Assembly: GCA_016707205.1 (NCBI GenBank)
Contig: JADJHZ010000007.1
Location: forward strand, 188,151 to 252,150
DNA from: Haliscomenobacter sp.
GTDB taxonomy: Bacteria > Bacteroidota > Bacteroidia > Chitinophagales > Saprospiraceae
DNA: 64,000 nucleotides
Direction of reading: 5' to 3'
Of this stretch, positions 8,090-62,314 are shown one piece after another (position 1 is the stretch's first letter; every line of letters begins with the position of its first letter). A program made the translations under genes and the position numbers. The notes below the pieces were generated by a model that was given only the letters and a program-made list of their open reading frames with translations, was not told the DNA's origin and did not search any database.

Positions 8090-8192
8090 GGGACCGGCGG
8101 ATAGTTCCGCACGAAATCTGAGGATTTCGGCGAACGGGGAAATCTGAGGATTTCGGCGAACGGGGGGACCGGCGGATAGTTCCGCACGAAAT
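8090..8192. repeat. Small dispersed hairpin-forming repeat element (REP/MITE-like), arranged X-Y-Y-X
   Basis: X = gggaccggcggatagttccgcacg at 8090–8113 and 8166–8189. Y = aaatctgaggatttcggcgaacgggg, duplicated in tandem at 8114–8139 and 8140–8165. Y contains the hairpin cgaaatc-tgag-gatttcg. A related copy lies at 18441–18490. Confidence 0.6.
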
Positions 8193-18490: not shown

Positions 18491-18582
18491 CTCGAACTAG
18501 TGCCGGTTTAAACAGTCCCTTGCCTTTTGCCCTACGCCTCAACGCCTTAACGCCTCACCCCCTCAACGCTCCAACGCTATGC

Positions 18583-26958: not shown

Positions 26959-26960
26959 AG

Positions 26961-27068
26961 TAGCGAAGTAACGTTTAGGCGTTTAGGCGTTTAGGCGCTG
27001 GGGCGTTGAGGGGTAGGATGCTTCTGGAGGCAAGGCGGTTTCTACCTCGCTACCTCGTTACTTCGCTA
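26961..27068. repeat. Inverted-repeat-flanked microsatellite block (8-bp units gtttaggc×3 and gctacctc-like×4)
   Basis: The arms are tagcgaagtaacg (26961–26973) and cgttacttcgcta (27056–27068). Related CGAAGT/GCTACCTC microsatellites occur at 5911–5960, 18532–18578, 55998–56070 and 58734–58781. Confidence 0.55.
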
Positions 27069-27302
27069 CGTCGCTACGTCCTCCTTTTCCTTACATCCGC
27101 AGCAAGCTTTCGCCTGGGTATATATGGACGCGGCTACGGCCAGCGCGAATAAAACGACTCCCGCTTTGCAATAGAAGGAACAGAAAAACACCGGCCCGGC
27201 GCCGAGCGAACTGGATATGGCGCCGACGAGGATCAGCAGCAGGAATAAGGTAAATAGCGCTGCGGGCAAGATTAATCCAATTCGGCACAGGAACGTTCTC
27301 AT
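27066..27302 (-). CDS. Small hypothetical membrane protein (78 aa, 2 TM) with a C-terminal CCGCKEKED motif
   Basis: ATG start at the complement of 27300–27302. The ORF has two hydrophobic helices and overlaps the microsatellite, so it is uncertain. Confidence 0.3.
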   Translation of the reverse strand: MRTFLCRIGLILPAALFTLFLLLILVGAISSSLGAGPVFFCSFYCKAGVVLFALAVAASIYTQAKACCGCKEKEDVAT

Positions 27303-48300: not shown

Positions 48301-51300
48301 CGGCTTTGAAGTTAAACAACCCGGCGGTGAGCGTGTCGGTCTGGCCGGAGGTAAGGATGCCGCTCCAGGGAACGGCCGGCTGCCGGATATTGTCTATTTG
48401 CCATTGGATGGTCAATGTGTTGAGGGTATCCGCGCCATGGTTTTTAACTGCGAGCCTGACCTCCCGTTCTCCTGCCCCAAAGGGGGTCTGGCGGTTTGGG
48501 GAAAGGATTTCTGCCACGCCTGCGTCGTTTTTGACGATGGGGAAGAACTCATCAGCCCCGATATCAGGGCGTTGCGGGTCGCGGGTTTGCCCATCGATGT
48601 CTGTCTTCACTTCCGGAACCGGGGTTGCAGCCCCGTTAAGGGCGCTAGAAACCATGTGGAGGTCGCCCGGCGAGGCAAATGGAGGCAGGATACTGAAGGA
48701 ATTGAGGTCGTACCCCGCTTCAGAGCGCCACCCTTCGAGGTTTTCATAGGTTTTCGCCTCCGTTTTGACCAACTGGGCGCCCGAAGTAAACAGGTTGTTA
48801 AAGTTGGACACATTGATCCCGCCAGTTTGCCAGTCCATGGCCAGTCCGCCTCCGCTATTAGCGAAGAGGTTATTGAGCAGCCGGATCGAACTACCCTGGT
48901 AGCTTCCGAAAGCGATGGCATCGGAACGGGTGCTGGTTTGATGCACCGAATTGAAGTAGGTTTTGATCAGGCTGCAATAGTATAGGTAAAGGCATCTGCT
49001 GTAGTTGCTCCCCGCTCCAACCTGGATAAAATTGTTGGCGATCAGCCCTTCGGCGCCCTGAAGCCCCTGGGAGTTTTCAATCAAAATTCCATTCCCTGCT
49101 TTAATTCCGGTGAAGTTATTTCCCAGAATGCGGAAACTGCCCTTTCCATAGCGCATATAAAGCCCCCGGAAGGAGGAATACGAGGAGGCGGTTCGGAGTG
49201 TATTGCCGCTGGCCTCAGGCGCTTCCTGATAAGACAGAAATATCCCCGTGTAATACGGATCCACCAGCACATTTTGGGTAAGCTGGGCGCCATAATCGGG
49301 GTTGGCGTCATTTTGTCCTTGCAGGAGAAAACTGTAGCTGCCGTTGATAAGGGTGTTTCCGGTAAAGACGTTATTGGAGTCCGCTTCTGCACCTGAATAG
49401 ACTATGGCCACCCGGTCGTCGGTGCTGCCCGTCGTTTTCGTTTTCAGGGTGCAGTGTTCCAAACGGTTATTGCCTGCAGCACCCCGAATATCCAGCACTC
49501 TTCCATAGGTAGCGTCTTTGGCTTCCAGGGTCATGTTCCTGAAGCGCACCCAATGCGATCCGTTCCATTGCAGGACGTAGTTGCCTTGGCTGGTAGCCGT
49601 GAATTGAAGGGTTACGCGGGTACTATCTTCTTCTTCGGATTCAAAAGCGACGGTTTTTTCGGCACTCGATCCGAGAATGGAGGGGACGGTAATTTGCTCG
49701 GTATAGATGCCATTTCGGATTTTGAATGTAACCGCATCTACTACGCCTCCCCTGGTTAGCGCACTAATGGCTCTGGAGCATGTGGGAAAATCAGGAGCGG
49801 TTCCTCCAATCGTATAGATCCCTCCCAGGGCAGCATAAAGATTGCTCACCTTGGCGGTGTCGTTGAGCGGATCTTCATCGGGTTGCCCATTGGGTAAATG
49901 CGTGTACGCCGCGATGGAATAGCTGCTGTCGACCCGGAACGGGAATACGCCGATAGACAGGTCGTCGAGCGTTCGGCCTGATTTGAGGGACCCCGTCCAG
50001 GTGAAGGGAGTTTGGGCTATTCCATTAACGAGCCACCGGATCTCTACGGCGCGCAGGGTATCCAGTCCGTTATTAACCAGGGTAACTTTTACCGGTTGAG
50101 CAGTAGCGGCAAAAGGCGGTTTAGGGGCGGAAATCATCGCTACAGAGGCATCGTAAGCGGAGGTGTAAAATTCATCGGCCCCCATATCGGGCTTCATCGC
50201 ATCGCGTTTCTCTCCGTCGATATCGGTTTGAACCCGGGCAAGAGGAATGGCTGATTTATCCAGGGCTACATCCGTAAGGTGCAGATCGGAATCGGAAATA
50301 AACCGCGGTTTGATGGATATTGAATGGGAATCCTGCTTGACCGACGTGCGCCAGGCAGCCAGGTTGCTTATATTGCCATTCCAGTAACCCACGTTTGCCC
50401 CGGCAGTATACAAGTCGTTATAGTCGGAATTCAGGATGCCAGACGTATAGTAGTTGTAATAGGCATACCCGGCGCTGCTGTGAATGAACAGGTTGTTCAA
50501 CACCTGGTTCTCGTACCCGTAATAGTTGTAAAAAGCTTTGCTTTCTGCATGGGTAGTGGTATTGTGAACGCTATTGAACGCTACCTCCACCTGGGTGCAG
50601 GACCCCAATCCAAGCCCGTGGTAATTTTGGGTTCCCCAGGTATGGATGAAGTTGTTGCCGACGGTTACGGGTTTTTCGGCGGTCGCATAAATGCTGATCA
50701 GGTAAATACCAATAGCATCCTTGAGTCCAGTAAGCTGGTTACCCGTGATCCGGCTTTCTCCTTTGCCATCTGACCAGTAGATCCCGGCATATCCTGGCGT
50801 ATTGCCGGAAGCGGTGAACAGGTTGGCGCGCACCATCAGGTTGCTCAGGCTGGACAGGTAAATGGCCCGGTAATACTGATTGTTGAACTGGTTGCTGTCG
50901 ATAACCAGGCCGCCGATGTAATTTCCGCTGTTGTAGGGCCCGTAGATATAAAAGCCAAAAGACCCTCCCTGGAACCGGTTGGATGTAAACCGGTTGGCCT
51001 CCCCAATGCTGTTGTAGCTGTAAACTAAGGCATTGGCATCAGCGTAAGAGTTATTGGACGGCCCTTCCATGACATTGTTTTTAAAAACATTATGGTGGGC
51101 GCCATCCGCCAGCACGATGGACCGGGTGTATTGGGTGCCTCCCGGCCGGAAGGTCATTTTTTGGAATTGAACGTAAGAAGTCCCTGTAAGCTGCACCAGG
51201 TAGTTGGCGTTGTAGTCGGAAGTAGTAAATGCCAGGACCACCGCGCTGCTGTCCCCACTTTCGGACTGAAATACGGTGGTTTTTTCCGGCCCGTTCCCCG

Positions 51301-54300
51301 GAATGGTTTTCAGGTTAAGTTTTTCGGTATATGTTCCATTGCGGATCATAAAGACGACTGGAGCGTGAATGCCGCCTCGGGTAAGCTGGGTAACCGCTGC
51401 GGTGAAGGTGGGGAAATTTGGGGCGGCGCCGCCAATGGTATAGGTTCCGCCCAATCCGGCGTAGAGGCTGTCAAGTGACAGCGTATCGTTGGAAGGAACG
51501 GGATCTGAAAACCCGTTGGGGGTAGTGGTCCAGGCCAGGATGCGGTAGGATTGCCCCAGCATGAATGGTACGCTGCCCAGGGTGATTCGCAGCGTGTCGT
51601 TGGAAAGCAGAAGGCCGGACCATTCTCTTGAGGTTTGGGTTGCTCCATTCACTTTCCATTCGATCCTCAGGTTTTGCAGCGGATTAGCGCCGTAGTTTTT
51701 GATCAGGGGAACCAGAGGTTGTTCTCCAACAGGGAAAGGGTACGCTGCAGTTCCCAGCATTTCCAGGCCTGCATCAACAGGGGATGGGGTGAATTCATCA
51801 GCCCCGATATCCGGTTTTTGGGCGTCTCTGGGTTGGCCTTCGATGTCGGTGGAGATGCCTGCAGGGGCCCCGGCTTTGTTCAGACCGATTTGAGTGACGG
51901 CAAAGGCCGTATCTGACGTAAAGCGCGGATCAACGGATACGGAGTGCCCATCGAAGCCGGAAGTAGCTTGCCAATCTGCCAGATTTGCAATTTTCAGCGT
52001 TTGGAAGGCCAGATAACCGCCAGTAGCATACAAGTCGTTGTAATCCGACTCGGAAAAGATGCCGGCGCTTCCCATTTCAAAGGCGTATCCGCCGCCCGAG
52101 TTCACCAGAATGTTGTTGACCATCCGGTTGTCCCTGCCACTGTAAGCATACAGCGCTTTGGACGCGCTATGGGTATTGAGTACGCGGACGGTGTTGTGCA
52201 GCAGATGTACAAAATAGTTGTATCGAAAATCGACCCCCCTGATCTCTTCGGTTGCTTCTGCATGGACGAAGTTGTTGCAGACGAAAATAGGGTTCTGAGC
52301 TGTCCCGGTGAAGGATTCCAGCGAAATTCCCTCTCCGCGCCGGAGTCTGGTAATCTGGTTCGAGCAGATCTTTCCGGGGCCTTTCCAATAGAACAGATTG
52401 AGCGCAATGGTATTGTAATAGGCCGACGGGCTTTGGATTTTGTTCTTTTCCAAGGAGCAATCTTCCATGTACCGCAGGTAGGCGGCGGAAACATAGTTGT
52501 TGATGAAAGCATTGCTTTCAATGGATACTTTTTTGGAATACCGGTCGTACAGGCCGCCCAGGTAGATTCCGTAGCTTCCGTTCTCGAACACGTTGTTTTT
52601 AAGGGTAAATTCCTGGGCGTACAGGTTATCTCCAAACAGAATGGCTTTGTCCGTTCCACTGGAGGTGGTACTTTCCCCAACAAGGCGCAGGTTTTCCATT
52701 CGGAGGTTTTGGAGGTTTCCTTTTAGAGAGAAGATGCGGGTGTAATACCCGCCGCCGCTCCGGAAGCCCAGCTTGCGGAAGGTGACCCATTTCGCGTTAT
52801 CCAGCTCTGCGACGTATAGTTTGTCGTAGGTAGCGTTGTTGAAGGTGATCGTCACTGCCGAACTATCGCCCGATTCGCTTTGGAAGACAACGCCGGCATC
52901 AGGTCCGGCGCCGGGAATCTCGTGCAGGGAGAACTGATCGATATAGGATCCATTCCGGATGTTTAAGGCCACCGGCGCGTATATGCCGCCGGTGTTCAGG
53001 ATGGTTACCGCGTCCGAGATTTTTTGGAAATGAGGATTGTTGCCGCCAATGGTGAATGCGCCACCCAAACCGGCATACAGATTCCCTTTGGAGGCCGTAT
53101 CGTTGACCGCGACCGGATCGGCCATTCCGTTGGGCAGGTTACCCCATGCTTTCAGGGAATAAGGCCTCCCCAGGGAGAAAGAAGCATTCCCCAGCTTGAT
53201 CCGGACGGTGTCTTTGGTGTTCAGGGTCCCTGTCCAATTCCGGGGCGGTTGAAGGGTATCGTTGACGGTCCAGTGAACGGATACACTGGTAATTGGATTC
53301 ACCCCGAAGTTTTTCAACACGGCCCATACCTCCTGACTCCCCGGCGCGAAGGGGAAAGCGCCGGGGGCTACGGAAATCATCCCGGCATCTAGGGAAGGAG
53401 GATTGAATTCGTCGGCCCCGATATCCGGGGTGGCTGCGTTGCGCGGATCGCCCTCCAGGTCAGTTGTAACCAGGGCGTCGGGTAAGGCGGCGCCATTAAG
53501 CGCAATTTGTACCACGTGGAAGTTGGTATCTGCAACAAACAGAGGATCCAGGGAAATGGAGAACGAATCCAGCATCGTTTGCGCCTGCCATTCGGAAAGG
53601 GTGGCACTGGGGGCGTTCCAACTCCCAAGTACGGCCCCTTTAGTATACAAGTCGTTGTACCTGGACAGGACGGCGCCCGCAGAACCATTGATCTGTAGAG
53701 CAAATCCTCCCCCTTTATTGGACAGGATGTTGTTTTGAAGACGTTTGTTCGACCCATAATAAAGGTAAAAGGCCGCACTGCCAGGGTTGGTGTTGGTCAG
53801 GTTGACGGAGTTGTAAAGAAAAAGCTGCCGGTTTCCGTAGGAAGTGTAGAAACCAAAGGCGGATGATTGTCCGCTCAAATGGATAAAGTTATTGGCTACA
53901 AGGAAGGGAAAGGTATCCGGCGCGTTGACTTCATAAAGGTAGATGCCTTTGCCTTCGTTCAGGCCATATACTTTGTTTGCCGTGATCTGACCCGCTCCGG
54001 TGAAGGAGGAGAGGTGGATGCCTTCTTTGCCGGTATTGGTGGAGGTGGTTGACAAGGTATTATTATGGATGATGATTCCCTGGATATAGTTGGCGTAAAT
54101 ACCGCCGGCCTGAAAATTGCTCAGCCGGTTGCTTTCCAGCCGAAAATTTTTGTAGGGCAGATTGTATCCGCCTTCAAAATAGAACCCGTAGGCGGAATTT
54201 TCCAGAAGGTTGTTTTTCCAGGTGTTGTTCTCTTTGAGGACGGGGTCGCCGGCGTAAACCAGGACGTGCCGGTTGCCGGAGTAGTAGGTGATTAGCGGCC

Positions 54301-55624
54301 CCCGGAACCGGTTGTTCTCGAAGGTGTTATTGGAGGCCTGGCCGGAGAGCAGCAAAACCCTGCCAAAGGTGTTATCGGAGGCTTCGATACTTAGGTTTTT
54401 AAGGGTTATCCATTGCGCGCCCTGCAGGTGGAGGGTGAAGTTGGATGCGTCGTTGCCGGAGGCGTAGGTCAGGATAACGCTGGCGGCATTGCCGCTTTCC
54501 GCCTGAAAAGTAATAGGGTTTTGGGCGCTGCTTCCCGAAACGGCGCCAAGGGTGACTTGTTCCTGATACGTGCCGTTCCGCACCTTAAAAGTGGCAGGTC
54601 CGCAAACGCCAAAGCTGGCGAGTGCCTGGGCTGCCAGAGCGAAGGAGCTGAAATTCGGGTTGGCGCCCCCAATGGTGTATTCTCCGGTCAAGCCAGGCCC
54701 AAGGGTCAACGTCAGGGTGTCGTTGGTAAGAAAGGGATCAGCTCCGCCATTGGGCAGGGAGGTCCAGATTTTGAACAGGTAGGTATTTCTTGCAACAAAC
54801 GCGAAACTGCCCAAAGTCACGCTGACCGTACTGCCTTGCTGGCCGGAGGGTGGTATGGAAGCCTCGTAATTCAAGGGCGTTTGCGCGATTCCGTTCACCG
54901 ACCAGTTGACGCGAACGCTGTTCAGGGCGTTAGACCCAAAATTGGCAATGGTCGCCTTGACCTGCTGCGCTCCCGCACAAAAGTTTTTGGGCTCGTCGAA
55001 CGACCACATCCCGGCGTCGTTGGACAGGGATGCAGCAAACTCCAGCTGAAGCTGGGGCTTTTCGTTTGTATTGGTAGTGGTGGACAGCCCACAGGTGTTT
55101 TCGCTATCCGACCGGATGTACCGAACGCCATTAACTGCCTGATAGTACCTCACCGTACCGGACGAAGAGTATCCTGGGACCCGGTCGAAGCATACGTCGA
55201 CCAGCAGGTTGTCCTGCCCGTTCCACAGAAAGGACTGGCTGAGGGCGAGCAGGTGGAACCCTCCGGCTGCGGGCGCATAGGTAGCGGCGTTAAAGACCGT
55301 GGTGAATGGACCTGGGTCGTGGATGGTAGCGTCGGCAGCAGTTGTGTGCTTCAGTTTTATCGCAAAATTCGGCAGGTTGTAGTTGGGAGCCGACTCGATG
55401 TAAAACCCCAGTTTCTGGATCCTGCCCGCTCTGGCGCCGGCAGCAGTCAGCTCTGCCGCGGTGTATACGATTTGGAGGTGAGAGCTGGCGTAATAGATAT
55501 TGATGGGAGATGCGCCGGTCGTGGAGGTGGTAGTGGTACCGCTACCCAATTGAATGGTCGATTGCGCTTGAACGAACCCACATACCAAGGCCACGAGCCC
55601 GGACACTAGCAACGCGCTTTTCAT
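42392..55624 (-). CDS. 4410-aa secreted mega-protein: about 8 tandem modules of CARDB-like plus right-handed parallel beta-helix repeats, then about 12 CARDB-like domains and a PPC-like C-terminal domain
   Basis: A single intact ORF with signal peptide MKSALLVSGLVALVCGFVQAQ. Modules of about 470 aa begin with DAG… and contain NN-rich beta-helix turns (NNxFxNG, YLYYxxNxxxxNN). The later repeats read …DLxVxxVxxPxxAxSGxxxxVxWxVxNxG…YYLxVxTDxxNxxxExxExNN (CARDB). Confidence 0.9.
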   Translation of the reverse strand: MKSALLVSGLVALVCGFVQAQSTIQLGSGTTTTSTTGASPINIYYASSHLQIVYTAAELTAAGARAGRIQKLGFYIESAPNYNLPNFAIKLKHTTAADATIHDPGPFTTVFNAATYAPAAGGFHLLALSQSFLWNGQDNLLVDVCFDRVPGYSSSGTVRYYQAVNGVRYIRSDSENTCGLSTTTNTNEKPQLQLEFAASLSNDAGMWSFDEPKNFCAGAQQVKATIANFGSNALNSVRVNWSVNGIAQTPLNYEASIPPSGQQGSTVSVTLGSFAFVARNTYLFKIWTSLPNGGADPFLTNDTLTLTLGPGLTGEYTIGGANPNFSSFALAAQALASFGVCGPATFKVRNGTYQEQVTLGAVSGSSAQNPITFQAESGNAASVILTYASGNDASNFTLHLQGAQWITLKNLSIEASDNTFGRVLLLSGQASNNTFENNRFRGPLITYYSGNRHVLVYAGDPVLKENNTWKNNLLENSAYGFYFEGGYNLPYKNFRLESNRLSNFQAGGIYANYIQGIIIHNNTLSTTSTNTGKEGIHLSSFTGAGQITANKVYGLNEGKGIYLYEVNAPDTFPFLVANNFIHLSGQSSAFGFYTSYGNRQLFLYNSVNLTNTNPGSAAFYLYYGSNKRLQNNILSNKGGGFALQINGSAGAVLSRYNDLYTKGAVLGSWNAPSATLSEWQAQTMLDSFSISLDPLFVADTNFHVVQIALNGAALPDALVTTDLEGDPRNAATPDIGADEFNPPSLDAGMISVAPGAFPFAPGSQEVWAVLKNFGVNPITSVSVHWTVNDTLQPPRNWTGTLNTKDTVRIKLGNASFSLGRPYSLKAWGNLPNGMADPVAVNDTASKGNLYAGLGGAFTIGGNNPHFQKISDAVTILNTGGIYAPVALNIRNGSYIDQFSLHEIPGAGPDAGVVFQSESGDSSAVTITFNNATYDKLYVAELDNAKWVTFRKLGFRSGGGYYTRIFSLKGNLQNLRMENLRLVGESTTSSGTDKAILFGDNLYAQEFTLKNNVFENGSYGIYLGGLYDRYSKKVSIESNAFINNYVSAAYLRYMEDCSLEKNKIQSPSAYYNTIALNLFYWKGPGKICSNQITRLRRGEGISLESFTGTAQNPIFVCNNFVHAEATEEIRGVDFRYNYFVHLLHNTVRVLNTHSASKALYAYSGRDNRMVNNILVNSGGGYAFEMGSAGIFSESDYNDLYATGGYLAFQTLKIANLADWQATSGFDGHSVSVDPRFTSDTAFAVTQIGLNKAGAPAGISTDIEGQPRDAQKPDIGADEFTPSPVDAGLEMLGTAAYPFPVGEQPLVPLIKNYGANPLQNLRIEWKVNGATQTSREWSGLLLSNDTLRITLGSVPFMLGQSYRILAWTTTPNGFSDPVPSNDTLSLDSLYAGLGGTYTIGGAAPNFPTFTAAVTQLTRGGIHAPVVFMIRNGTYTEKLNLKTIPGNGPEKTTVFQSESGDSSAVVLAFTTSDYNANYLVQLTGTSYVQFQKMTFRPGGTQYTRSIVLADGAHHNVFKNNVMEGPSNNSYADANALVYSYNSIGEANRFTSNRFQGGSFGFYIYGPYNSGNYIGGLVIDSNQFNNQYYRAIYLSSLSNLMVRANLFTASGNTPGYAGIYWSDGKGESRITGNQLTGLKDAIGIYLISIYATAEKPVTVGNNFIHTWGTQNYHGLGLGSCTQVEVAFNSVHNTTTHAESKAFYNYYGYENQVLNNLFIHSSAGYAYYNYYTSGILNSDYNDLYTAGANVGYWNGNISNLAAWRTSVKQDSHSISIKPRFISDSDLHLTDVALDKSAIPLARVQTDIDGEKRDAMKPDMGADEFYTSAYDASVAMISAPKPPFAATAQPVKVTLVNNGLDTLRAVEIRWLVNGIAQTPFTWTGSLKSGRTLDDLSIGVFPFRVDSSYSIAAYTHLPNGQPDEDPLNDTAKVSNLYAALGGIYTIGGTAPDFPTCSRAISALTRGGVVDAVTFKIRNGIYTEQITVPSILGSSAEKTVAFESEEEDSTRVTLQFTATSQGNYVLQWNGSHWVRFRNMTLEAKDATYGRVLDIRGAAGNNRLEHCTLKTKTTGSTDDRVAIVYSGAEADSNNVFTGNTLINGSYSFLLQGQNDANPDYGAQLTQNVLVDPYYTGIFLSYQEAPEASGNTLRTASSYSSFRGLYMRYGKGSFRILGNNFTGIKAGNGILIENSQGLQGAEGLIANNFIQVGAGSNYSRCLYLYYCSLIKTYFNSVHQTSTRSDAIAFGSYQGSSIRLLNNLFANSGGGLAMDWQTGGINVSNFNNLFTSGAQLVKTEAKTYENLEGWRSEAGYDLNSFSILPPFASPGDLHMVSSALNGAATPVPEVKTDIDGQTRDPQRPDIGADEFFPIVKNDAGVAEILSPNRQTPFGAGEREVRLAVKNHGADTLNTLTIQWQIDNIRQPAVPWSGILTSGQTDTLTAGLFNFKAGIGHEILAYTESPNGKPDLQPSNDSATVTGLFPALEGTYTIGGASPDFTSFAEAVMSLNEGGVLGAVTFEVRPGIYNEQVVLNRIRGAGQEKPVVFRPESSASVTWRFDQQKQASNYVLLLDGTQFAVFREIQFRTSSSVYATLIDLRRSASNLQFLGNSFRSESAAASPLINASSSSPGGFNTWAGNRFENGGYGLYLAPGAAEPGQVIEDNEFANPQNGGIYLRYQQAPIIRGNKIASQSAGNFYGIFAQNGNGGMRIEKNQINAAAGSGIWLYDCRGSSSDRLLVANNFVHVAGTQPANGLYSNYNAYVDIYFNSVHLTNSNPNSQSVQIAASDHVNLVNNSFSNTGGGFAIYAPNPYGIDNMNFNNYFVSGNKLGFWNYNTASSLSAWKSLTGKDNQSISADPLFVSNTDLHCFQPALDSAASPLATVKDDIDGEARNAGYPDIGADEFSYILDDAGVTALLSPVSSCAAGAALPVKIRIQNYSGLALSNFNVAYRINKGPATVQNVGNLNIRPGASAEFTFTATANLSAPGNYFFDVYTLLPEDTHPGNDTLSVEVQNLVFPAAAGNMLPANSASGMNLPIAFSWSPSTGATEYDFYLWKYGTSRPAQPTASGLEDISFLYRSPALELGSVYQWQVSAKNPYCATDGPVQSFTLIDLPDLSVRKVQIPALAFSGQPADLTWEVYNTGKGGTGSATWFDAIYLSADPFYTSEIDPLLASVPNLSALGSGQGYAHSATVKLPEGISGEYYLFVRTDAYTRIPESDETNNFGLSLAPVNISLTPPPDLQVTGVVVPNNAFSGASIAISWKITNKGTGNTRSAGWTDYVYFSNSAVLDPSNAAILGKTTFSKALQPDSSYTQMLTAPLPEGISGVHYVHVLTDFFKQEYEHAAENNNAGVSTAINVILTPPSDLIVSSLEIPASVTNGASFTVKWTVENQGGSDAKAAWKDVIYLSPNPVRLVLSEAIVLGAQVRYQPLTPGASYPVTLTVNAPERLAGPYYLYVHTDADNQVYEYNLDGNNTRRATASISLLAADLTVSMVQYPSQGNSGDTLTVSWTLKNTGEGKLPAGYLTQTVWLSSQSAFNPGAAAQIGRDSQQVELDAGASLNKQFHLRLPNGIQGAYYLFVWADPNGQIYENGRLSNNRASGAGPITVRLSPWVDLDVLTASYPSNATAGQLIGLSYEVKNIGSRAASNENWRDRIYLSTSALWNPASAQLIREFIQDKPLGKDSAYSVVSQVSLPATLKTGSYYLHILTDAANQLYEYNGEGNNHLAGPLIEIKAQPPVDLAMVQVSAPSQANSGSSITVQWQVRNQAGTETISPLWVDAVYLSSDTVYHPDTDLLLDTLLKYGPLGAGQTYTSARSFLLPPSLSGTYYLLAVADYSGLNNDSNRSNNHRALRNASGNIQPIQITLAPPTDLHITALNASSPGIAGQTVRVFWTVRNKGLGNTPVAAWSDRFFLSNDFDLDASDIILGAKAHSGKLNAGNAYSDTIDLFLPVYLSGNFILLAATDVNNAVYEHLGETNNLASSAISIAQPPPSDLQVLNVRMPDSALAGASVTVRWILQNSGLNPASGQMREAVYLSSDPGWDVGDALLGTRNAQINLGPGSMLEHELTAPLTKVAAGDFYILVRTDILNNILESDESNNLAASENRIHANVKILPIGETVQTTLPNSTDLYYRIEVPSTLQGETMLLTLSGDTLNGANEMYLRFGDLPSLVLFDFAHGEAVSGRQEIIVPELATGTYYLLVRGNTRNGSQQNIRLLAEILVFQIRKVQAAKGGNGGQITLRIDGSKFEPGMTFRLEGSNSNSITANAVWYVDRTRVFATFDLRGHTPGLYPLSARKTGGAMTTLNNAFQIESGGSPLLLTNFTAPANTRPRQVVALQIDFSNGGNLDLLNPSVILSSLGGAPIAWTIQGLDEQKTELELLFAEKSGPPGILRPGSSGSVIVYARADAALFFTLINAEVK

Positions 55625-56070: not shown

Positions 56071-58670
56071 ACCACCTTCAGCGATTCGGCAGTGAGGGTA
56101 GCCGGTTGTTTGGGGGTAAAGCCGACCTCGACGGTTTCGCCGGGCAGGAGGTCGAAGTAGTTATCGGAAAAGAACCCTTCGGCTTCGGGGAAGTCGAGGT
56201 AGACGTTTTTGGCCAGGCGGTCCGCTTTGAGGCGGATGAGCACGTCCGGTCCGGAAGGGTTGGGGATCACTTCCATTTGCAGCCCGGGGTCTTCGGGCAG
56301 ATGGAGGTCTTTGACCGGGTGGAAATAAACCAAGTTGGGTGCACGACTTTCCTTGCTTCAGGGTCATTTCCATTACCTGATTGCGTCCGGATTGTCCGCG
56401 GTGTAGTTCGCCCGAGGGGATAGCGGCTGCGAGAAAAGCGGTATTGGGCGCCGCCAGGATTTGAAACTGGCGGTTCCAGACCGGGTTTCCGTCAAAATCC
56501 AGGATACGCAGATCGAGGGTGGCTTCCAGGGAATCCATGCGGTCGGACACCACGCGGATCTGGACTTCGTTATCTACTTCCCGGGCCGATACCGCCACGG
56601 GAGCAAACGCTTTTTTCACAAAGTAGTGCATGGCTTTCCACCGTTGGTAGTAATCCATGCCCGACCAGGAAGCTACCGGCCAGCAATCGTTGATCTGCCA
56701 GTACAAGGTGCCCATGTTGTGGGGTTTGGCGCTGCGGTGGGCTTCGATGGCCATTTTGATCCCTTCCGCCTGAAGCACCTGCCCCACATAGAGCATGCGC
56801 TCAAACTCGGAAGGCACCTGATAGTGGGCTTTCATGTAGCTTCGGATGCGCAAATTGCCGATCCCGCTGCGCTGATGAGCGGCCATGACTTCCGACTCGA
56901 TGTCCCAGTCTTTCGGCAGCGTATAGGCTTTCACGGTGCGGAACTCCGGGAACGACTGGAACCCGTATTCGCTCATGAAGCGGCCGATGTATTTGTAAAA
57001 GTCGTCGAAAGGATGTTCGCCGTGCCAGACGCCCCAGTAATGGATATCCCCGCCCTGGGTATCGTACCCTGCGAGTTTGCCATGCTCCAGAAAAGGAGAG
57101 GACGGCCAGTAAAACAGGCCCGGGTGGTAGGCGTTGACCACTGCGGGAAGCATTTGGTGAAACACGTTTTCGTAAGCCTCCCAGATGTATTTGCGCTGTT
57201 GTTTCGTGTATTGCTGTTTCCAGCCCCAGCCTTTGAACTCGTCGAAATTGGCCCAGGCTACATCGATCTCGTTGTTGCCGCACCAAAGCGCAATACAGGG
57301 GTGGTTGCGCAGGCGTTTGACGTTGTAGACGGCTTCCGCCTCCACATTCTGAAGGAACTCGGATCGCCGGGGTACATGGAGCAGGCGAACATGAAATCCT
57401 GCCAGATCAGGATGCCGTTCTCGTCGCACAGCTCGTAAAAATAATCCTCTTCGTAGAAGCCGCCGCCCCACACGCGGAGCATATTCATATTGGCGTCGGC
57501 GGCTGATTTGATGACCCACTGGTATTGTTCCCGGGTAACTCTGGGCAAAAACACGTCGTTTGGGATGTAATTGGCGCCTTTGCTGAACAGGGCATGGCCG
57601 TTGAGTTCGACATAGAACGAACTACCTTTTTCATCCGGGGTTTGTACCACGCGGATGGTGCGAAGCCCCACGTTGTGGCTCTTTTCATCCAGGGTGGCGC
57701 CGTTTTGAATCAGTTTCACCTGCAACGGATACCGATGCTGTTCGCCCAGCTCTTTGGTCCACCAAAGCTTGGGTTGGTTGATCTCAAAAGGCAGCTCCAG
57801 GGTGTGGTTACCCAGGGCGAGGTTCATCGTTTGCTGGCGCAGGAGGGTATCCCCGTTCCATACTTCCAGGGTATAGGCGCCTTCTTTCAGCGCGCGGGTT
57901 TCGCAAAGGGCGGTAAGGCGGGCTTGATTTGCATCCAGGGAATCCTGGCGGAAAAAGACGTCTTCCAGGCGGGCGGCGTTCCATAGTTTCAGGTTAACAG
58001 GCCTCCAGATGCCGATGCTGACCAGGCGCGGGCCCCAGTCCCAGCCGAAATGATAGCCCGGTTTGCGGAGAAAAACGCTCACGCGCTTATCCCCCAACCC
58101 ACCATTTTCCGATTGGTCGTTGGACGCCGGGAGTGGAAACCCGTGTTCGGCCAGCTTTTTCAACCCCACCTGAGCAGGAGAATAGAAGTAGACCCTCAAT
58201 TGGTTTTCGCCGGCGCGCAAAAGGGAACGCACATCCGCTTCCCAAGCGAGGAAAAAATTGTCGGCCTGCAGAATAAGCGAGTCGTTGAGGTATACATCGG
58301 CGTAGGTGTCCAGGCCCAGGAATTCGAGCTGGGCGGCGTCGTATTCCAGCATGGAGGGGTCTACGGCAAAGGACATGCGGTATTCCCAATCCGTTTTGTC
58401 CACCCACTGCACTTCCCGCTCGTTGGTGCGGTAATACGGGTCTTCAATTTTGCCGTTGGCCATCAGGTCGGTATGCACCGTGCCTGGAACGGTAGCCGGC
58501 ATCCAGTATTCCTGGCCGTTCTGGTGAAAGGCCCAGTTTTCATTCAATGGAATGATCCGCATCTCGGATGTTTTTTGAGCGAAAGAGGTAATGGAGGTCA
58601 ATAAAAAGGCAAATGCCGCAACAAAAGTAGCCTTGCTCAACTTTTCAGCCATTTTTTCCGTATTTTTCAT
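56058..58670 (-). pseudogene. Glycoside hydrolase family 2 beta-mannosidase, split into three ORFs by two 1-nt homopolymer frameshifts at ~57372 and ~56350
   Basis: Fragment 57258–58739 has a signal peptide and the N-terminal beta-sandwich, and goes out of frame at …FMFACSMYPGDP|. Fragment 56161–57519 resumes EFLQNVEAEAVYNVKRLRNHPCIALWCGNNE… and fails at …TLKQGK|. Fragment 56058–56333 is the C-terminal domain. Restoring a C at ~57372 and a T in the ctttcc run at ~56350 joins them. Confidence 0.8.
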
Positions 58671-58733: not shown

Positions 58734-58781
58734 CCGCAACCTCGCAACTTCGCAACTTCGTAACTTCGCAACTTCGTAACC
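58734..58781. repeat. 8-bp tandem microsatellite (aacttcgc/aacttcgt ×5) immediately upstream of mnmE
   Basis: ccgcaacctcgcaacttcgcaacttcgtaacttcgcaacttcgtaacc. Confidence 0.7.
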
Positions 58782-60237
58782 TTGAATCTATCCGACACCA
58801 TCATCGCCCTTGCCACCCCGCCCGGGGTGGGCGCCATCGGAGTCATCCGCCTGTCGGGGGAAGACGCTATTGTCTTGGCGGACCGCTTTTTCACGGAAAA
58901 CCGTTGAACGAGCAGCCGAGCCATACGATTCATTTTGGGACGATCCGGGATGAAACCGGCCGGATAGTAGACGAGGTGCTGGTATCGCTGTTCATTGCCC
59001 CGCGTTCGTACACCGGCGAGAACGTGGTAGAAATCTCCTGCCACGGCTCCAACTACATCCTGGAAGAAGTGATCCGCTTATTCATTCGGGCAGGGGTTCG
59101 GCAGGCGCAGCCGGGGGAGTTTACCCTGCGGGCCTTCCTCAACGGGCGCATGGATCTCAGTCAGGCGGAAGCGGTGGCCGACCTCATCGCCTCGGCTTCT
59201 TCCGAAGCGCATAAACTGGCGATCGCCCAACTGCGCGGCGGGGTCTCCGACGAGATCAAACGCCTGCGCCAGGAACTGCTCGACTTCGCCAGCCTCATCG
59301 AACTCGAACTCGATTTTAGCGAAGAAGACGTGGAGTTTGCCGACCGCACCCAGCTTCATCACCTGATCGACCGCATCCAGACCCTCATCAAAGCCCTGCT
59401 CGACTCGTTTCAGCTCGGCAACGCGATCCGGCAAGGGGTCAGCACCGTCATCGCCGGGCGGCCCAACGCCGGCAAATCCACCCTTCTCAATGCCCTGCTC
59501 AACGAGGAGCGCGCCATCGTGAGCGAGATCGCCGGCACCACCCGCGACACCATCGAGGAACTCCTCAATATCCAGGGCATTCAGTTCCGCATCATCGACA
59601 CGGCAGGGATTCGCGAAGCCCACGATACCATCGAGGCCCTCGGCGTCGAACGCACCCTGGAAAAAGTGCGCCAAAGCGCGGTGCTGGTCTACGTATTCGA
59701 CGTCGTGAAGACCAGCCCCGAGCAGGTGCGGCACGACCTCGCCCAACTCATTCACTCCGACCTGAAAGTGCTGGTCGTGGCGAATAAGATGGATTTGAAT
59801 CCGTATACCCAGTTTGAGCATTATTTTGAGGGAGCAGGGATTAGGGAGCAGGGATTAGGGGAGGGGATTAGGGGAGCAGGGAGCACAATCTTCCCCTCTT
59901 GACCCTTTGAACGTTTCCGCTACTCAATGGGTCCCCATTTCGGCCATCAACCGGATGAACATCGAATACCTGAAAGAAAAGCTATTTGAGACCGTCATTC
60001 AGGAGGAGCTCTCCATGGATACGGCCATCTTAAGCAATACCCGTCACTACGAAGCCCTCCAGAAGGCAGGAGAAAGCCTCCAGGCCGTGAAACAAAACCT
60101 CCAGGCCGGCGTTACGACCGACTTCATCGCCATGGACATCCGGCGCGCCCTCCACTACCTGGGCGAGATCACCGGCGAGATTAGCACGGACGACCTGTTG
60201 GGGAATATTTTTTCGAGGTTTTGTATTGGAAAGTAAG
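58782..60237 (+). pseudogene. mnmE: tRNA uridine-5-carboxymethylaminomethyl modification GTPase MnmE, with two apparent 1-nt frameshifts (~58893 and within 59858–59900) and a TTG start
   Basis: The N-terminus (M)[37 protein letters not shown] hits a stop. The +1 frame continues …[16 protein letters not shown]…GRPNAGKSTLLNAL…TTRD…DTAGIRE…VVANKMDL. The third frame ends …DDLLGNIFSRFCIGK, which is the conserved MnmE C-terminus. Confidence 0.85.
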
Positions 60238-60249
60238 CATAGATTCTCC

Positions 60250-61545
60250 CCACGATACCTGCTACCTCATCGCCCCGACAATCCAAAAACCTCCTTCGCC
60301 CAAACCTGTTTCGCCGCAAACCCGCCGTGGCGGACGAGCGCCCACCAGCAGATCACAGGGTTAATGCCTTTTGATCTTTTTGTCTGAACTATGATTTATT
60401 TGATTTGGGGATTCCCTTGATTTTTTTGTTTGTAAGATTTATTAGCCAGGCGTTTGAATGGAAGGGATTTAGCACTGGAGTTGATCAGGAAGTGAGCGCG
60501 GATTATTTGTATGCTTTCTCAATCATAGTCCATCTATACATCAAAAAAATCACAGTTCAGACATTCCCCTGCTACCTCATCGCCCCCAAAAAAGCCCAAA
60601 AACCTCCTTCGCCCAAACCTGTTTCGCCGTGCAAACCCGCGGTAGCGGACGAGCGTCCAAAAGCAGATCACAGGTTAGCGCCTTTTGGTCTGTTTGTCTG
60701 AACTATGATTTATTTGATTTGGGGATTCCCCGATTTTTGTTTGAAGGATTTATTGGTCAGGCGTTTGAATGGGAGGGATTTAGCACTGGAGTTGATCAGG
60801 AAGTGAGCGCGGATTATTTGTATGCTTCCTCAATCATAGTCCATCAATACATCAAAAAAATCACCGTTCAGACAATTTGCCCTGCTACCTCATCGCACCC
60901 CGACAATCCAAAAACCTCCTTCGCCCAAACCTATTTCGCCGTCCAAACCCGCCGTAGCGGACGAGCGTCCAAAAGCAGATCACAGGTTAGCGCCTTTTGG
61001 TCTTTTTGTCTGAACTATGATTTATTTGATTTGGGGATTCCCTTGATTTTTTTGTTTGAAGGATTTATTGGTCAGGCGTTTGAATGGGAGGGATTTAGCG
61101 CCGAAGTTGATCAGGAAGTGAGCGCAGAGTATTTGTATGCTTCCTCAATCATAGTCCATCCATACATCAAAAAAATCACCGTTCAGACAATTTGCCCTGC
61201 TACCTCATCGCACCCCGACAATCCAAAAACCTCCTTTGCCCAAACCTATTTCGCCGTCCAAACCCGCCGTGGCGGACGAGCGCCCACCAGCAGATTCGCA
61301 GGGTTAATGCCTTTTGGTCTTTTTGTCTGAACTATGATTTATTTGATTTGGGGATTCCCTTGATTTTTTGTTTGAAGCATTTATTGGTCAGGCGTTTGAA
61401 TTGGAGGGATTTAGCACTGGAGTTGATCAGGAAGTGAGCGCGGATTATTTGTATGCTTTCTCAATCATAGTCCATCTATACATCAAAAAAATCACAGTTC
61501 AGACACATTCCCCCGTTGCGCCTGACTGCATTGCGAGTGGAGGGC
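60250..61545. repeat. Tandem array of four ~313-bp repeats (periods 314, 312 and 317) with internal inverted repeats
   Basis: Copies of tgtctgaactatgatttatttgatttgggg lie at 60381, 60695, 61007 and 61324. Each unit begins ccctgctacctcatcgc…. Each unit carries TGTCTGAACTATGATT … AATCATAGTCCAT…GTTCAGACA inverted repeats. Units differ by small indels and substitutions. Confidence 0.85.
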
Positions 61546-61625
61546 AGTGAAAAAAAGACCGCCTCCGCTACCGCTCCGGCAGAAAGGTAAAAGGTAAAAG
61601 GGTAAAGGGTAAAAGAACTCAAGGG

Positions 61626-62314
61626 TTAGTACCCGTCTAACCGAGAACCGAAATTGCTGTCCCCGATATCGGTAAAGAACCCGACGCGGAAGGACACCCG
61701 GCAATTGAAATCATCGAAGTTCCAGGACCCGCCACGAACCACACGCATATCTTGATCGCCGCCGGTCGTCCACGCGCTTCCGTCGTCCGGGGCGCCCTCG
61801 TAGTTGGCATGCCATACATCGGCGCACCATTCCCACACGTTGCCGCTCATATCGTACAGCCCCAGTTCGTTGGGCTGTTTTAGTCCCACGGGTTTGGTTT
61901 CTGCGTGGCTGTTTTCACCGTACCAGCCTACTTCGTTGAGTTTGTTTCCACCGGAATAGGTAAACCCCTGGCTTCGATGGCCGCCCCGGGCCGCGTATTC
62001 CCATTCCGCCTCGCTGGGCAGGCGGTAGGTTTTGCCGGTGCGGGTATTCAGTTTTTTGAGGAAAGTTTGCACGTCGATCCAGGACACCTGCTCCACCGGG
62101 CGGTTGGGGTCCTGAAAAGAAGACGGGTTGTCGCCCATCACTGCCTGCCATAGCGCCTGGGTGACGGGTACTTGCCCAGGGAAAAGCGGGGTATTTGCAC
62201 GCGTTGATTGCCCATTTGGAAGGGCCCCCCTGCAATGTGGATCATTTCAAAAAACAGATCCGTGTCCGGGATGCGGTCCCGATAGCTCTCCTGGGGATAG
62301 TCAATGGCGCTCAT
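61626..62314 (-). pseudogene. FGE-sulfatase (SUMF1/C-type-lectin-fold) domain protein with one 1-nt frameshift at ~62166
   Basis: The start MSAIDYPQESYRDRIPDTDLFFEMIHIAGGPFQMG…FSLGKYP shifts frame to VTQALWQAVMGDNPSSFQDPNRPVEQVSWIDVQTFLKKLN…YRLPSEAEWEYAARGG…GNVWEWCAD…RVVRGGSWNFDDFNCRVSFRVGF. These are canonical FGE-domain motifs. Its ATG overlaps the upstream gene stop by 14 nt. Confidence 0.75.

What the first reader, a model, noticed from the sequence alone, without database searches (positions are those of the whole stretch)
60250..61545. Four-copy ~313-bp tandem repeat array with internal inverted repeats, between mnmE and the CHAT/FGE cassette
The period of 312–317 bp is far too long for a CRISPR array. 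Each unit carries a 16-bp inverted repeat pair (TGTCTGAACTATGATT / AATCATAGT…GTTCAGACA) about 170 bp apart, resembling tandemly amplified MITE-like or structured-RNA units. Unit heads share the GCTACCTC motif with the dispersed 8-bp microsatellites elsewhere in the window. One plus-strand frame stays open across three units (ORF 60629–61330, 104-aa repeating peptide), but its composition is not protein-like. The array could be a satellite, a cluster of small RNA genes, a degenerate MITE array, or a recombination hot-spot that explains the local assembly errors.
Basis: seen in the sequence. Interest (0 to 1): 0.65.

Follow-up and report, generated by a model that had tools for sequence, protein, structure and literature searches.

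The report
Tandem relics of a decayed gene module
The four ~313-bp repeats after mnmE are real, but each is a shrunken, dead copy of a 2.1-kb gene module (a hairpin-bounded GxxExxY nuclease cassette plus a Bro-N gene) that is still intact in sister Haliscomenobacter genomes, so the array looks like debris in a hypervariable island, not an RNA-gene cluster.

Summary
In detail: 60258-61505 holds 4.0 head-to-tail copies of a ~313-bp unit (92% alike), each with 24-42-nt inverted arms. The window comes from a Haliscomenobacter MAG with a noisy long-read assembly. Each unit has two gene relics. On the + strand is a ~125-nt fragment of a Bro-N gene (CYLIA...FAQTYFAVQTRR) with frameshifts. On the - strand is a 183-bp GxxExxY (PD-(D/E)XK_3) gene cassette that has lost 289 bp internally but keeps both terminal arms (TGTCTGAAC...GTTCAGACA). 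Conspecific MAGs carry the intact version right after mnmE: full GxxExxY gene, Bro-N, DUF5131, then the same mini-cassette, as a 2,140-bp tandem duplication. The 313-bp unit is therefore a skeleton of that module, left by at least four deletions and then amplified fourfold. The mnmE 3' flank has at least four different contents among near-identical strains. I found no Rfam match, promoter or terminator, and no dispersed copies, so an sRNA cluster or active MITE is unsupported. By-product: the arms belong to a hairpin family spread across phyla (more than 120 loci; Bacteroidota, Chloroflexota, Cyanobacteria and others). It either brackets GxxExxY genes or occurs as empty ~95-bp hairpins, often in tandem. 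I found no description of it in Rfam or in the papers searched.

The parts
60258..61505 (.). Tandem array, 4.0 units of about 313 bp (u1 60258-60567, u2 60568-60880, u3 60881-61195, u4 61196-61505)
   Evidence: TRF period 315, 92% matches; direct-repeat families; alignment A1
60258..60380 (+). Unit 1 'spacer': relic of a Bro-N gene (codons ~92-120, weakly 184-195), followed by ~31 nt that in L122 lie just after the DUF5131 stop
   Evidence: blastn to L122 8403-8459 and 9814-9847; tblastn CYLIA / FAQT(Y/C)FA
60568..60694 (+). Unit 2 Bro-N relic
   Evidence: tblastn PQKSPKTSFAQTCFAVQTR vs Bro-N 101-119, 68%; blastn 60583-60640 vs L122 8403-8459, 84%
60881..61006 (+). Unit 3 Bro-N relic
   Evidence: tblastn PKTSFAQTYFAVQTRR vs Bro-N 105-120, 81%; CYLIA at 60883-60897
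61196..61323 (+). Unit 4 Bro-N relic
   Evidence: tblastn 61223-61270 and 61198-61212
60381..60563 (-). Unit 1 mini GxxExxY cassette: 5' arm, codons 1-13 (with a stop), a 289-bp deletion, codons ~110-139, 3' arm
   Evidence: Alignment with full cassettes L100/L002/L006/L010/L093; tblastn to the L122 GxxExxY protein
60695..60875 (-). Unit 2 mini GxxExxY cassette
61007..61190 (-). Unit 3 mini GxxExxY cassette. It is the least decayed: it keeps LINFGAKS and MIEEAYKYSALTS without a stop
   Evidence: tblastn 61114-61037, 92% to GxxExxY 110-135, and 61152-61114 to residues 1-13; 95% identical to the L122 mini-element
61324..61505 (-). Unit 4 mini GxxExxY cassette
61007..61030 (+). Example left arm TGTCTGAACTATGATTTATTTGAT (others at 60381, 60695, 61324); it is the 3' arm of the cassette in gene sense
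61166..61189 (-). Example right arm TGTCTGAACGGTGATTTTTTTGAT read on the - strand (others at 60540-60563, 60851-60874, 61482-61505); it is the 5' arm of the cassette in gene sense
61506..61563 (+). Right flank of the array, homologous to the sequence that follows both element copies in L122 (7900-7950 and 10040-10090)
   Evidence: blastn 61431-61563 vs L122 7817-7950 and 61289-61563 vs 9815-10090
58782..60236 (+). mnmE, split into three ORFs by frameshifts; homology with the relatives ends at 60246, 10 nt after the stop
61626..62314 (-). FGE-sulfatase-domain gene (frameshifted), the first gene of the downstream FGE/CHAT cassette
   Evidence: Pfam PF03781 E=1.4e-38; same arrangement in L128

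Best explanation
The array is non-coding debris made by rearrangement in the hypervariable island that begins right after the mnmE stop codon of this Haliscomenobacter genome. The ancestral state, still present in sister MAGs, was a ~2.1-kb module: a GxxExxY (PD-(D/E)XK_3) gene on the minus strand bracketed by inverted arms TGTCTGAAC...GTTCAGACA, then a Bro-N gene and a DUF5131 gene (both match PADLOC candidate defence families). That module was already tandemly duplicated. Shown: in the window lineage the module is reduced to a 313-bp skeleton by (1) a 289-bp deletion inside GxxExxY that keeps both arms, (2) loss of the Bro-N promoter and 5' part, (3) loss of the middle of Bro-N, and (4) loss of the rest of Bro-N plus DUF5131. 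All four units share every junction. Inferred: the skeleton was then amplified to four copies by unequal crossing-over or replication slippage, and gene conversion between units produced the mosaic of shared variants. The long hairpin-forming arms probably promote such slippage, because tandem multiplication is common in this hairpin family. I see no evidence of a current function.
For: The array is real and its units have diverged. Source and relatives: the MnmE fragment is 98-99% identical to Haliscomenobacter MAG proteins. In L122, L123, L127, L129 and L130 the flanks are ~95% identical up to window 60246. L122 7449-7527 matches window 61036-61114 (96%), the next 289 bp (7528-7816) are absent from the window, and 7817-7950 matches window 61431-61563. 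The L122 ORF 7237..7854(-) is a full GxxExxY protein. L122 9815-10090 holds the same mini-element with the same deletion and the same right flank (92%, 277 nt). A 300-nt repeat spaced 2,140 bp apart shows the larger tandem duplication. The spacer is a Bro-N relic: blastn 60583-60640 vs L122 8403-8459, and tblastn PKTSFAQTYFAVQTRR, CYLIA and KPAVADERPKAD; the L122 gene matches PF02498 Bro-N. The cassette cargo matches TIGR04256 at E=1.9e-39 and PF13366 at E=5.7e-38, and aligning the window units to five full cassettes shows the internal deletion. The relics carry stops and frameshifts. There is no Rfam hit and no promoter or terminator. The island is hypervariable. Bro-N matches PDC-S13 and DUF5131 matches PDC-M30B/M41B. 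The sister assembly L128 has the same mnmE-array-CHAT/FGE layout with at least two units. The family tends to form tandem arrays: 32 of 120 loci have 2 or more same-strand arms within 450 bp, for example L092 x7 and L083 x3.
Against: Copy number rests on one noisy assembly with homopolymer frameshifts in mnmE, the mannosidase gene and the FGE gene, and the only sister assembly with the same layout (L128) is garbled in this stretch. The direction of change (intact module to skeleton) is inferred from intact versus broken reading frames, not from a rooted phylogeny. The Bro-N 184-195 match is weak on its own (E about 0.6). Expression was not tested. The 183-bp element folds better than shuffles (z -3.9), so a residual RNA- or DNA-hairpin role, such as termination or stabilisation of the mnmE transcript, cannot be excluded. 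Unit-to-unit divergence (4-8%) is as large as divergence from the L122 copy. The array is therefore old or the sequence is error-laden; persistence of an old array could hint at selection.
Confidence: 0.85

Rival explanations
1. Family-specific propagation: the four copies were produced by the hairpin element's own multiplication mechanism (for example nuclease- or hairpin-driven copying into the adjacent site, dragging flanking sequence along), not by generic unequal crossing-over.
For: Tandem runs of same-strand arms occur in 32 of 120 loci of the family. L092 has 7 x 95 bp, L017 6 or more, and L074 and L062 have 4. L083 has 3 x 171-bp units, each a hairpin plus a copy of the last 16 codons of hsdM, which has the same architecture as the window: a gene fragment plus the element. 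L122 carries a 2,140-bp duplication bounded by the element.
Against: The window's cassettes are dead: the nuclease gene is deleted and carries stops. No intact GxxExxY gene or other arm lies in the 64-kb window. No mechanism is known. Generic slippage at long palindromes explains the same pattern.
Confidence: 0.15
2. The array is a functional non-coding element: a cluster of small RNA genes, or a repeated hairpin terminator or stabiliser for the mnmE transcript.
For: The 183-bp element folds better than shuffles through its arms (z -3.9 as RNA, -2.7 as DNA). The array lies directly 3' of mnmE on the same strand. The units have persisted long enough to diverge 4-8%.
Against: There is no Rfam match even at E<=10 and no promoter-like site; the single weak terminator-like site is in only one unit. 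Whole units fold no better than shuffles. Conspecific strains lack the array altogether or carry intact genes instead. The sequence content is explained by gene relics.
Confidence: 0.05
3. Assembly artefact: a single unit (or two) was inflated to four copies by a long-read assembler.
For: The window has many homopolymer frameshifts. The sister assembly L128 shows only two clean units plus garbled poly-C sequence at this locus.
Against: The units differ at about 45 sites, with 10 phylogenetically structured abba sites where u1=u4 and u2=u3, plus unit-specific changes. An artefactual duplication would give near-identical copies. L128's garbling is what a collapsed true repeat looks like. L122-type genomes independently carry two copies of the element.
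Confidence: 0.05

Closest known systems
MITEs (miniature inverted-repeat transposable elements)
   Same: The element is short and non-coding, has terminal inverted repeats, and derives from a larger gene-carrying element by an internal deletion that keeps both ends.
   Different: The parent's gene is a GxxExxY PD-(D/E)XK protein of unknown function, not a known transposase. I saw no target-site duplications at family members. This deletion derivative has no dispersed copies. The copies here are tandem and include non-element DNA (the Bro-N relic).
REP/BIME and REPIN-RAYT systems (my own knowledge: Bertels and Rainey 2011; Nunvar et al. 2010)
   Same: The hairpin-forming palindromic elements lie just downstream of genes and are often clustered in tandem. 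One protein gene is characteristically flanked by two copies of the element in inverted orientation.
   Different: The arms are ~40 nt built from TGATT motifs about 9 nt apart, not ~20-35-nt REPs. The gene encodes a PD-(D/E)XK-fold protein, not an IS200/IS605-type Y1 transposase. It is multi-copy, and gene and arms are nearly identical across phyla (87% protein identity between Bacteroidota and Cyanobacteria). RAYTs are single-copy and lineage-specific.
23S rRNA intervening sequences carrying an S23p/four-helix-bundle ORF (e.g. the Coxiella burnetii IVS, PMC4990558)
   Same: A small selfish ORF sits in the loop of a long stem formed by terminal inverted repeats and is inserted into a transcribed host unit. 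Here the host unit is often a type I R-M operon.
   Different: The cargo family and arm sequence differ. The insertion sites are protein-gene operons and intergenic regions, not rRNA helices. RNase III excision is untested here.
Integron attC sites and gene cassettes
   Same: Imperfect palindromes of 60-140 bp with conserved outer cores (GTCTGAAC/GTTCAGAC resembles RYYYAAC/GTTRRRY plus one extra base) are associated with small promoter-less ORFs.
   Different: The gene lies inside the palindrome, between the arms, not between successive attC sites. No integrase or attI is nearby in the window or the loci inspected. The resemblance comes from memory and was not tested with an attC model.
CRISPR arrays
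   Same: Some family members form regular short-period arrays of 72-95 bp (L060, L092).
   Different: There are no unique spacers: whole units repeat. The window period is 313 bp, and no cas genes were seen.
Segmental tandem duplication followed by pseudogenisation in defence or integration hot-spots (for example the trmE/mnmE 3' end used by SGI1-type islands; my own knowledge)
   Same: The variable island starts at the mnmE 3' end. It holds defence-type genes and shows duplications and deletions among strains.
   Different: No integrase or att repeats were identified at this junction. Divergence starts within 3-10 nt after the stop codon rather than inside the gene.

Membership tests
Tandem repeat (minisatellite-like segmental duplication) | Head-to-tail copies of one unit, more than chance would give | tested here: met
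   TRF: 4.0 copies, period 315, 92% matches, score 2075
Pseudogene relics of a known gene module | Homology to intact genes in relatives, with disrupted reading frames | tested here: met
   GxxExxY and Bro-N are intact in L122. The window copies have a 289-bp deletion, stops and frameshifts.
MITE | Terminal inverted repeats on a short non-coding element | tested here: met
   24-33-nt arms at 82-92% complementarity; 183-bp element
MITE | Derived from an autonomous element that encodes a transposase | tested here: inconclusive
   It derives from a gene-carrying cassette, but the gene is a PDDEXK_3/GxxExxY protein of unknown function. No transposase activity is known.
MITE | Multiple dispersed copies in the genome | tested here: not met
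   In the 64-kb window the arms occur only in the array. The deletion-junction 20-mer gave only one chance hit in metagenome contigs. The whole source genome could not be searched.
MITE | Target-site duplications flanking each copy | tested here: not met
   The flanks of about 15 hairpin members inspected show no direct repeat; the palindrome often just extends by (A/T)T...A(A/T).
CRISPR array | Short (about 24-48 bp) repeats separated by unique spacers of similar length | tested here: not met
   The whole 313-bp unit repeats, and the 'spacers' are 85-93% identical to each other.
Small-RNA or structured-RNA gene family | Match to a curated covariance model, or own promoter and terminator with a fold better than chance | tested here: not met
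   No Rfam match at gathering or E<=10. No promoter, and only one weak terminator-like site. Unit fold z -0.2 and -0.8.
Small-RNA or structured-RNA gene family | Expression as a discrete transcript | not testable with these tools
   No RNA-seq data available.
TGTCTGAAC-arm hairpin / GxxExxY cassette family (defined here) | Both arms match TGTCTGAAC-NN-TGATTT-N-TTTGAT in inverted orientation | tested here: met
   8 matches in the window with at most 3 mismatches, 0 expected. More than 120 loci in other genomes.
TGTCTGAAC-arm hairpin / GxxExxY cassette family (defined here) | The interior is either almost nothing (80-120 bp in total) or one GxxExxY gene (460-560 bp in total) | tested here: met
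   The window element is an intermediate, keeping GxxExxY codons 1-13 and ~110-139. Size classes are and cargo.
REPIN-RAYT-like system | The flanked gene encodes the enzyme that mobilises the hairpins | not testable with these tools
   Only the association is shown. 19 of 120 arm-selected loci have an adjacent GxxExxY gene. 4 of 4 GxxExxY genes chosen by protein similarity have arms within 70 nt.
Integron attC | R''/L''-loop-L'/R' palindrome with extrahelical bases, next to an integrase or within a cassette array | not tested
   No attC model was available. No integrase was seen in the window ORFs near the array.

The most novel reading that the evidence does not exclude
The arms TGTCTGAAC-NN-TGATTT-N-TTTGATT...(TGATT about every 9 nt)... 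and their inverse, together with the highly conserved 139-aa GxxExxY PD-(D/E)XK protein they bracket, may be a selfish element that has not been described and moves between phyla, analogous to REPIN-RAYT. The nuclease gene would sit in the loop of a ~40-bp stem. Gene-less ~95-bp hairpins would be its non-autonomous form. The hairpins would drive local tandem amplification and deletions, and the element would settle preferentially just after stop codons, often inside type I R-M operons. On this reading the window's array is a fossil of such activity. An alternative mechanism is that the stem acts at the RNA level, with RNase III excising the inserted cistron as in rRNA intervening sequences.
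Probability: 0.35. Interest if true: 0.65.

Novelty: new member of a known kind. Interest (0 to 1): 0.3.

Why it matters
For this window the result is mainly a clean-up. A striking 1.25-kb repeat that could be taken for an RNA-gene cluster, a satellite or an assembly error is explained base by base as four copies of a collapsed gene module. It also marks the mnmE 3' flank of Haliscomenobacter as a fast-turnover island carrying candidate defence genes. The wider value is the by-product: a 24-nt-plus DNA motif conserved across at least seven phyla. It forms long hairpins, brackets the function-unknown GxxExxY nuclease family, sits in type I restriction-modification operons and tends to multiply in tandem. 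I found it neither in Rfam nor in the searched literature.

Tried and rejected
- Rfam on the window (gathering) and on 59700-61900 at E<=10 gave only chance-level hits: MS2 hairpin, bxd and mir-3192, all far below their thresholds. Rfam on 15 family loci gave nothing at the hairpins.
- Whole-unit RNA folds on both strands were not better than shuffles.
- A coding reading of the + ORF 60629-61330 was rejected. The only Pfam hit is sub-threshold (OGG_N, 20 bits against a cut-off of 23), and the frame is open partly because it follows the Bro-N relic.
- A CRISPR-like reading was considered when the arm motif showed 72-95-bp periodic matches in L060, L062 and L092. I rejected it on reading the sequences, because whole units repeat and there are no unique spacers.
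- Exact-protein look-ups of two window ORFs found nothing on record.
- The metagenome scan for the deletion junction returned one unrelated high-GC coding hit.
- A viral-contig scan for the arm found only 5 stretches in 3 contigs, so the family is not mainly phage-borne.
- PADLOC gave no hit for GxxExxY.
- Literature searches for GxxExxY, PDDEXK_3, TIGR04256, the arm sequences and the IVS/four-helix-bundle names found no description of the arms or the cassette.
- A link between the unit head and the octamer microsatellites was rejected (plus the Bro-N codons).
- I looked for target-site duplications around family members and for microhomology at the array borders. There was no TSD and no clean border story, so I make no claim. 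The one exception is the 5-nt GATTC shared at the L122 junction after mnmE.
Full report
**Observation.** Tandem Repeats Finder reports one long-period array in the window: 60258-61505, period 315, 4.0 copies, 92% matches. Register-locked repeat families give start-to-start spacings of 310-317 bp. The four units align over their whole length at 89% mean column identity. Each unit has a GC-rich ~125-nt part (CCTGCTACCTCATCGC...GCCTTTTGGTCTTTT) and an AT-rich ~183-bp part bounded by inverted arms. TGTCTGAACTATGATTTATTTGAT occurs four times on + and, with 2-3 mismatches, four times on -, against zero expected. The arms are 24-33 nt at 82-92% complementarity, 131-135 nt apart. The + ORF 60629-61330 exists.

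**No sign of an RNA gene.** Rfam gives nothing at gathering thresholds for the whole window and only chance-level hits at E<=10 around the array. Whole units fold no better than shuffles on either strand (z -0.24 and -0.76). The 183-bp element alone does fold better than shuffles (z -3.9 as RNA, -2.7 as DNA), and the stability comes from the terminal arms. There is no sigma-70-type promoter, and the only terminator-like site is a weak one in a single unit. The scan does not cover Bacteroidota-type promoters.

**The arms belong to a family spread across phyla.**
Hits came from Bacteroidota, Dehalococcoidia, Dolichospermum, Leptospiraceae, Planctomycetaceae, Ignavibacteria, Thiotrichaceae, Patescibacteria, Cloacimonadota and Poribacteria.
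- Lined up, the motif continues as TGATT motifs about 9 nt apart and is usually matched by an inverted copy.
- Arm-to-arm distances fall into two classes: about 62 at 80-120 bp ('empty' hairpins) and about 19 at 400-600 bp.
- Of 18 longer elements inspected (462-1,164 bp), 12 carry one intact 130-154-aa ORF and 2 carry a truncated one. The ORF starts in the last ATGATT of one arm and ends inside the other arm.
- That ORF is a GxxExxY protein (TIGR04256 E=1.9e-39; PF13366 PDDEXK_3 E=5.7e-38). An HMM built from four of them finds arm-adjacent GxxExxY ORFs in 19 of the 120 loci.
- The neighbours are often type I R-M genes (HsdR, HsdM, HsdS).
- The arm is read in different frames as a C-terminal tail (KNQGNPKIK* in L100, KSPESQKSNKS* in L022...NHSSD on HsdS in L016 and L072). 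The conservation is therefore at the nucleic-acid level.
- As a check not biased by arm selection, I took four GxxExxY proteins 81-89% identical to the Haliscomenobacter one, from Geminocystis herdmanii, Thermaurantimonas, Tenuifilaceae and Chitinophagales. All four have recognisable arms within 70 nt of the start or across the stop.
- No Rfam family covers the hairpins. The literature held here lists PDDEXK_3 as 'unknown', with 'multiple transfers' between divisions, and does not mention the arms.

**The window's element is a deletion derivative.** Aligned in gene sense with five full cassettes, each window unit keeps the 5' arm plus codons 1-13 (MIE(K/E)AYK(Y/*)SALTS). It then jumps to codons ~110-139 (LIN(F/S)(G/S)AKSL.FKRL.NKS.KQKNQGNPQIK*) plus the 3' arm. 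About 289 bp are missing, the two halves are out of frame, and three of the four units have a stop at codon 8.

**Source and relatives.** The MnmE fragment is 98-99% identical to proteins named Haliscomenobacter sp. (MAG). Intact orthologues are 480 aa, whereas the window's mnmE is split at two places, one of them a homopolymer. Together with broken mannosidase and FGE genes, this points to a noisy long-read assembly.

I fetched the conspecific contigs.
- In L122, L123, L127, L129 and L130 the flank is ~95% identical up to window 60246, 10 nt past the mnmE stop.
- L122 7449-7527 then matches the window element (96%), 289 bp follow that the window lacks, and 7817-7950 matches the rest of the element plus the array's right flank.
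- The ORF there is a complete GxxExxY gene on the minus strand.
- Downstream come an intact Bro-N gene (PF02498) and a DUF5131 gene.
- At 9815-10090 lie the last ~35 nt of the window's 'spacer', a mini-element with the same 289-bp deletion, and the same right flank (92% over 277 nt). A truncated second Bro-N gene follows.
- A 300-nt repeat spaced 2,140 bp apart confirms that L122 carries a tandem duplication of the whole module.

**The 'spacer' is a Bro-N relic.** Window 60583-60640 matches L122 8403-8459, inside Bro-N. At protein level the spacers read CYLIA...P(K)TSFAQTYFAVQTRR (Bro-N residues 92-120, 81% over 16 residues) and, weakly, KPAVADERPKAD (residues 184-195). The reading frame changes between the pieces. 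The last ~31 nt correspond to the sequence just after the DUF5131 stop in L122.

The 313-bp unit is therefore the 2,140-bp module minus four segments: the middle of GxxExxY, the Bro-N upstream region and 5' part, the middle of Bro-N, and the rest of Bro-N plus DUF5131. All four units share all these junctions, so amplification came after the deletions. This also explains the open + frame, which partly follows the Bro-N frame, and the GCTACCTC 'head', which is codons A-C-Y-L. The head's similarity to the CTACCTCG microsatellite is therefore coincidental.

**Age and reality of the array.** Pairwise identity of the element parts is 92-96%. Unit 3 is as close to the L122 mini-element (95.1%) and to an L128 unit (95.6%) as to its neighbours. 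Ten variable sites group u1 with u4 and u2 with u3, and others are unit-specific. An assembler-made duplication would not show such structured divergence, so at least several copies are real and fairly old, with exchange between units. L128 (GCA_016709065.1) has the same mnmE-array-CHAT/FGE layout but only two clean units separated by garbled poly-C sequence. That looks like a collapsed repeat, so copy-number variation is possible but unproven.

**Context.** Sequence diverges 3-10 nt after the mnmE stop into at least four arrangements among contigs with at least 97% identical MnmE:
- the window and L128 type (array, then FGE and CHAT);
- the L122 type (GxxExxY, Bro-N, DUF5131, an NTase/HEPN-like pair);
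- the L124 type (DUF3368, HTH-M78, Vsr, Dcm, PDDEXK_1, DEAD helicase);
- the L131 type.

The L122 Bro-N protein matches the PADLOC candidate PDC-S13 (E=5e-117), and DUF5131 matches PDC-M30B/M41B. This is a fast-turnover island of defence type.

**Mechanism.**
- Shown: the homology, the junctions, the broken frames, the larger duplication in relatives, and the variability of the locus.
- Inferred: the order of events (duplication of the module, deletions, re-amplification by unequal crossing-over or slippage, gene conversion).
- Also inferred: the hairpin arms favour such events. This rests on established knowledge that long palindromes stall replication and promote template switching. It also rests on the family's tendency to form arrays: 32 of 120 loci have 2 or more same-strand arms within 450 bp. 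Examples are L092 with 7 x 95 bp and L083 with 3 x 171-bp units, each a hairpin plus a copy of the last 16 hsdM codons.
- I put 0.85 on 'decayed, amplified module without current function'. The rivals are an element-specific propagation mechanism (0.15, not exclusive of the main reading), a functional RNA or terminator (0.05) and an assembly artefact (0.05).

**Comparison with known systems.**
- The unit is MITE-like in anatomy but fails the tests for dispersed copies and target-site duplications, and its parent encodes no known transposase.
- The family resembles REPIN-RAYT (a gene flanked by inverted copies of a hairpin element that also occurs alone and in clusters).
- It also resembles rRNA intervening sequences (an ORF in the loop of a long stem inside a transcription unit; PMC4990558 abstract).
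- Cargo, arm sequence and host range differ from both, and no activity has been tested.
- The resemblance to integron attC cores is from memory only and was not tested.

**Verdict.** The array itself is ordinary: a new instance of tandemly duplicated pseudogene debris in a variable island. The arm/GxxExxY cassette family is the item worth following up.

Noticed in passing
window 59829-59900 (inside mnmE); L128 7049-7153; L132 7084-7177: mnmE carries a microsatellite-built insert in its G-domain loop. The window has AGGGAGCAGGGATT x3.9, L128 has AGGGAGC x15, and L132 (MnmE 93% identical, 509 aa) has unrelated repeats CAAAAGTT x5.4 and CCTTGAA x5.6 at the same place. Intact relatives are 480 aa against 457-462 aa in other Saprospiraceae. 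This is a hypervariable 7-8-bp repeat inside an essential GTPase gene.
   Followed up: partly
window 58735-58780, 26972-27077, 18534-18577, 61583-61615, 8113-8177: Intergenic octamer microsatellites (CGCAACTT, CGTTTAGG, CTACCTCG, ACGCCTCA, AAAGGTA). The one upstream of mnmE differs in unit and copy number in relatives (L128 AACCTCGC x6.5; L132 CGTAACCCCGCAACTT x2.4). 26960-27085 forms an imperfect hairpin (GTAGCGAAGTAACG...CGTTACTTCGCTAC) just after a terminator. Their origin and role are unexplained.
   Followed up: partly
window ~58895, ~59900, 57258-57519, ~62140, ~63190: Frameshifts split mnmE (three ORFs against one 480-aa orthologue), the beta-mannosidase gene, the FGE-sulfatase gene and the CHAT gene. 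One is at a homopolymer (ACGGAAAACCG against an expected ACGGGAAAACCG). The window is a noisy long-read assembly, so small indels between repeat units may be errors.
   Followed up: partly
window 60237 onward; L122, L124, L128, L131 after the mnmE stop: At least four unrelated gene contents begin 3-10 nt after the mnmE stop codon in near-identical strains. The L122 type includes Bro-N (PADLOC PDC-S13) and DUF5131 (PDC-M30B/M41B). The L124 type includes Vsr, Dcm, PDDEXK_1 and a DEAD helicase. I identified no integrase or att site.
   Followed up: partly
L083 3150-3680; L092 1-670; L017; L060 2311-2500; L062 1800-2235: Other genomes hold tandem arrays of the same hairpin family. L092 has 7 x 95 bp (a hairpin plus 4 nt). 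L083 has 3 x 171 bp, where each unit is a hairpin plus a copy of the last 16 codons of hsdM. L060 has 3 x 72 bp of half-arms. In all, 32 of 120 loci have 2 or more same-strand arms within 450 bp.
   Followed up: partly
L016 1210-2535 (-), L072 3636-5051 (-), L010 638-1468 (+): Host genes (HsdS and others) read through the arm and acquire arm-encoded C-terminal tails such as ...NHKNQINHSSD or ...LNRDSSD. The elements sit at or across stop codons.
   Followed up: no
P0126 (Geminocystis herdmanii) vs the L122 GxxExxY protein: The 139-aa GxxExxY protein is 87% identical between a cyanobacterium and Haliscomenobacter (Bacteroidota) and 81-89% identical across several Bacteroidota orders. This suggests recent horizontal spread of this subfamily.
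   Followed up: partly
L006 6443-6518: A group II intron domain (RF00029, 65 bits) lies about 5 kb from a GxxExxY cassette in a Chitinophaga MAG. It is probably unrelated.
   Followed up: no
window 42392-55624 (-): A 4,410-aa secreted repeat protein lies upstream (in relatives it carries beta-helix/NosD/CARDB-type domains). In L132 a protein of the same length is called, and in L128 the corresponding gene call is 1,173 residues. It is not part of this finding.
   Followed up: no
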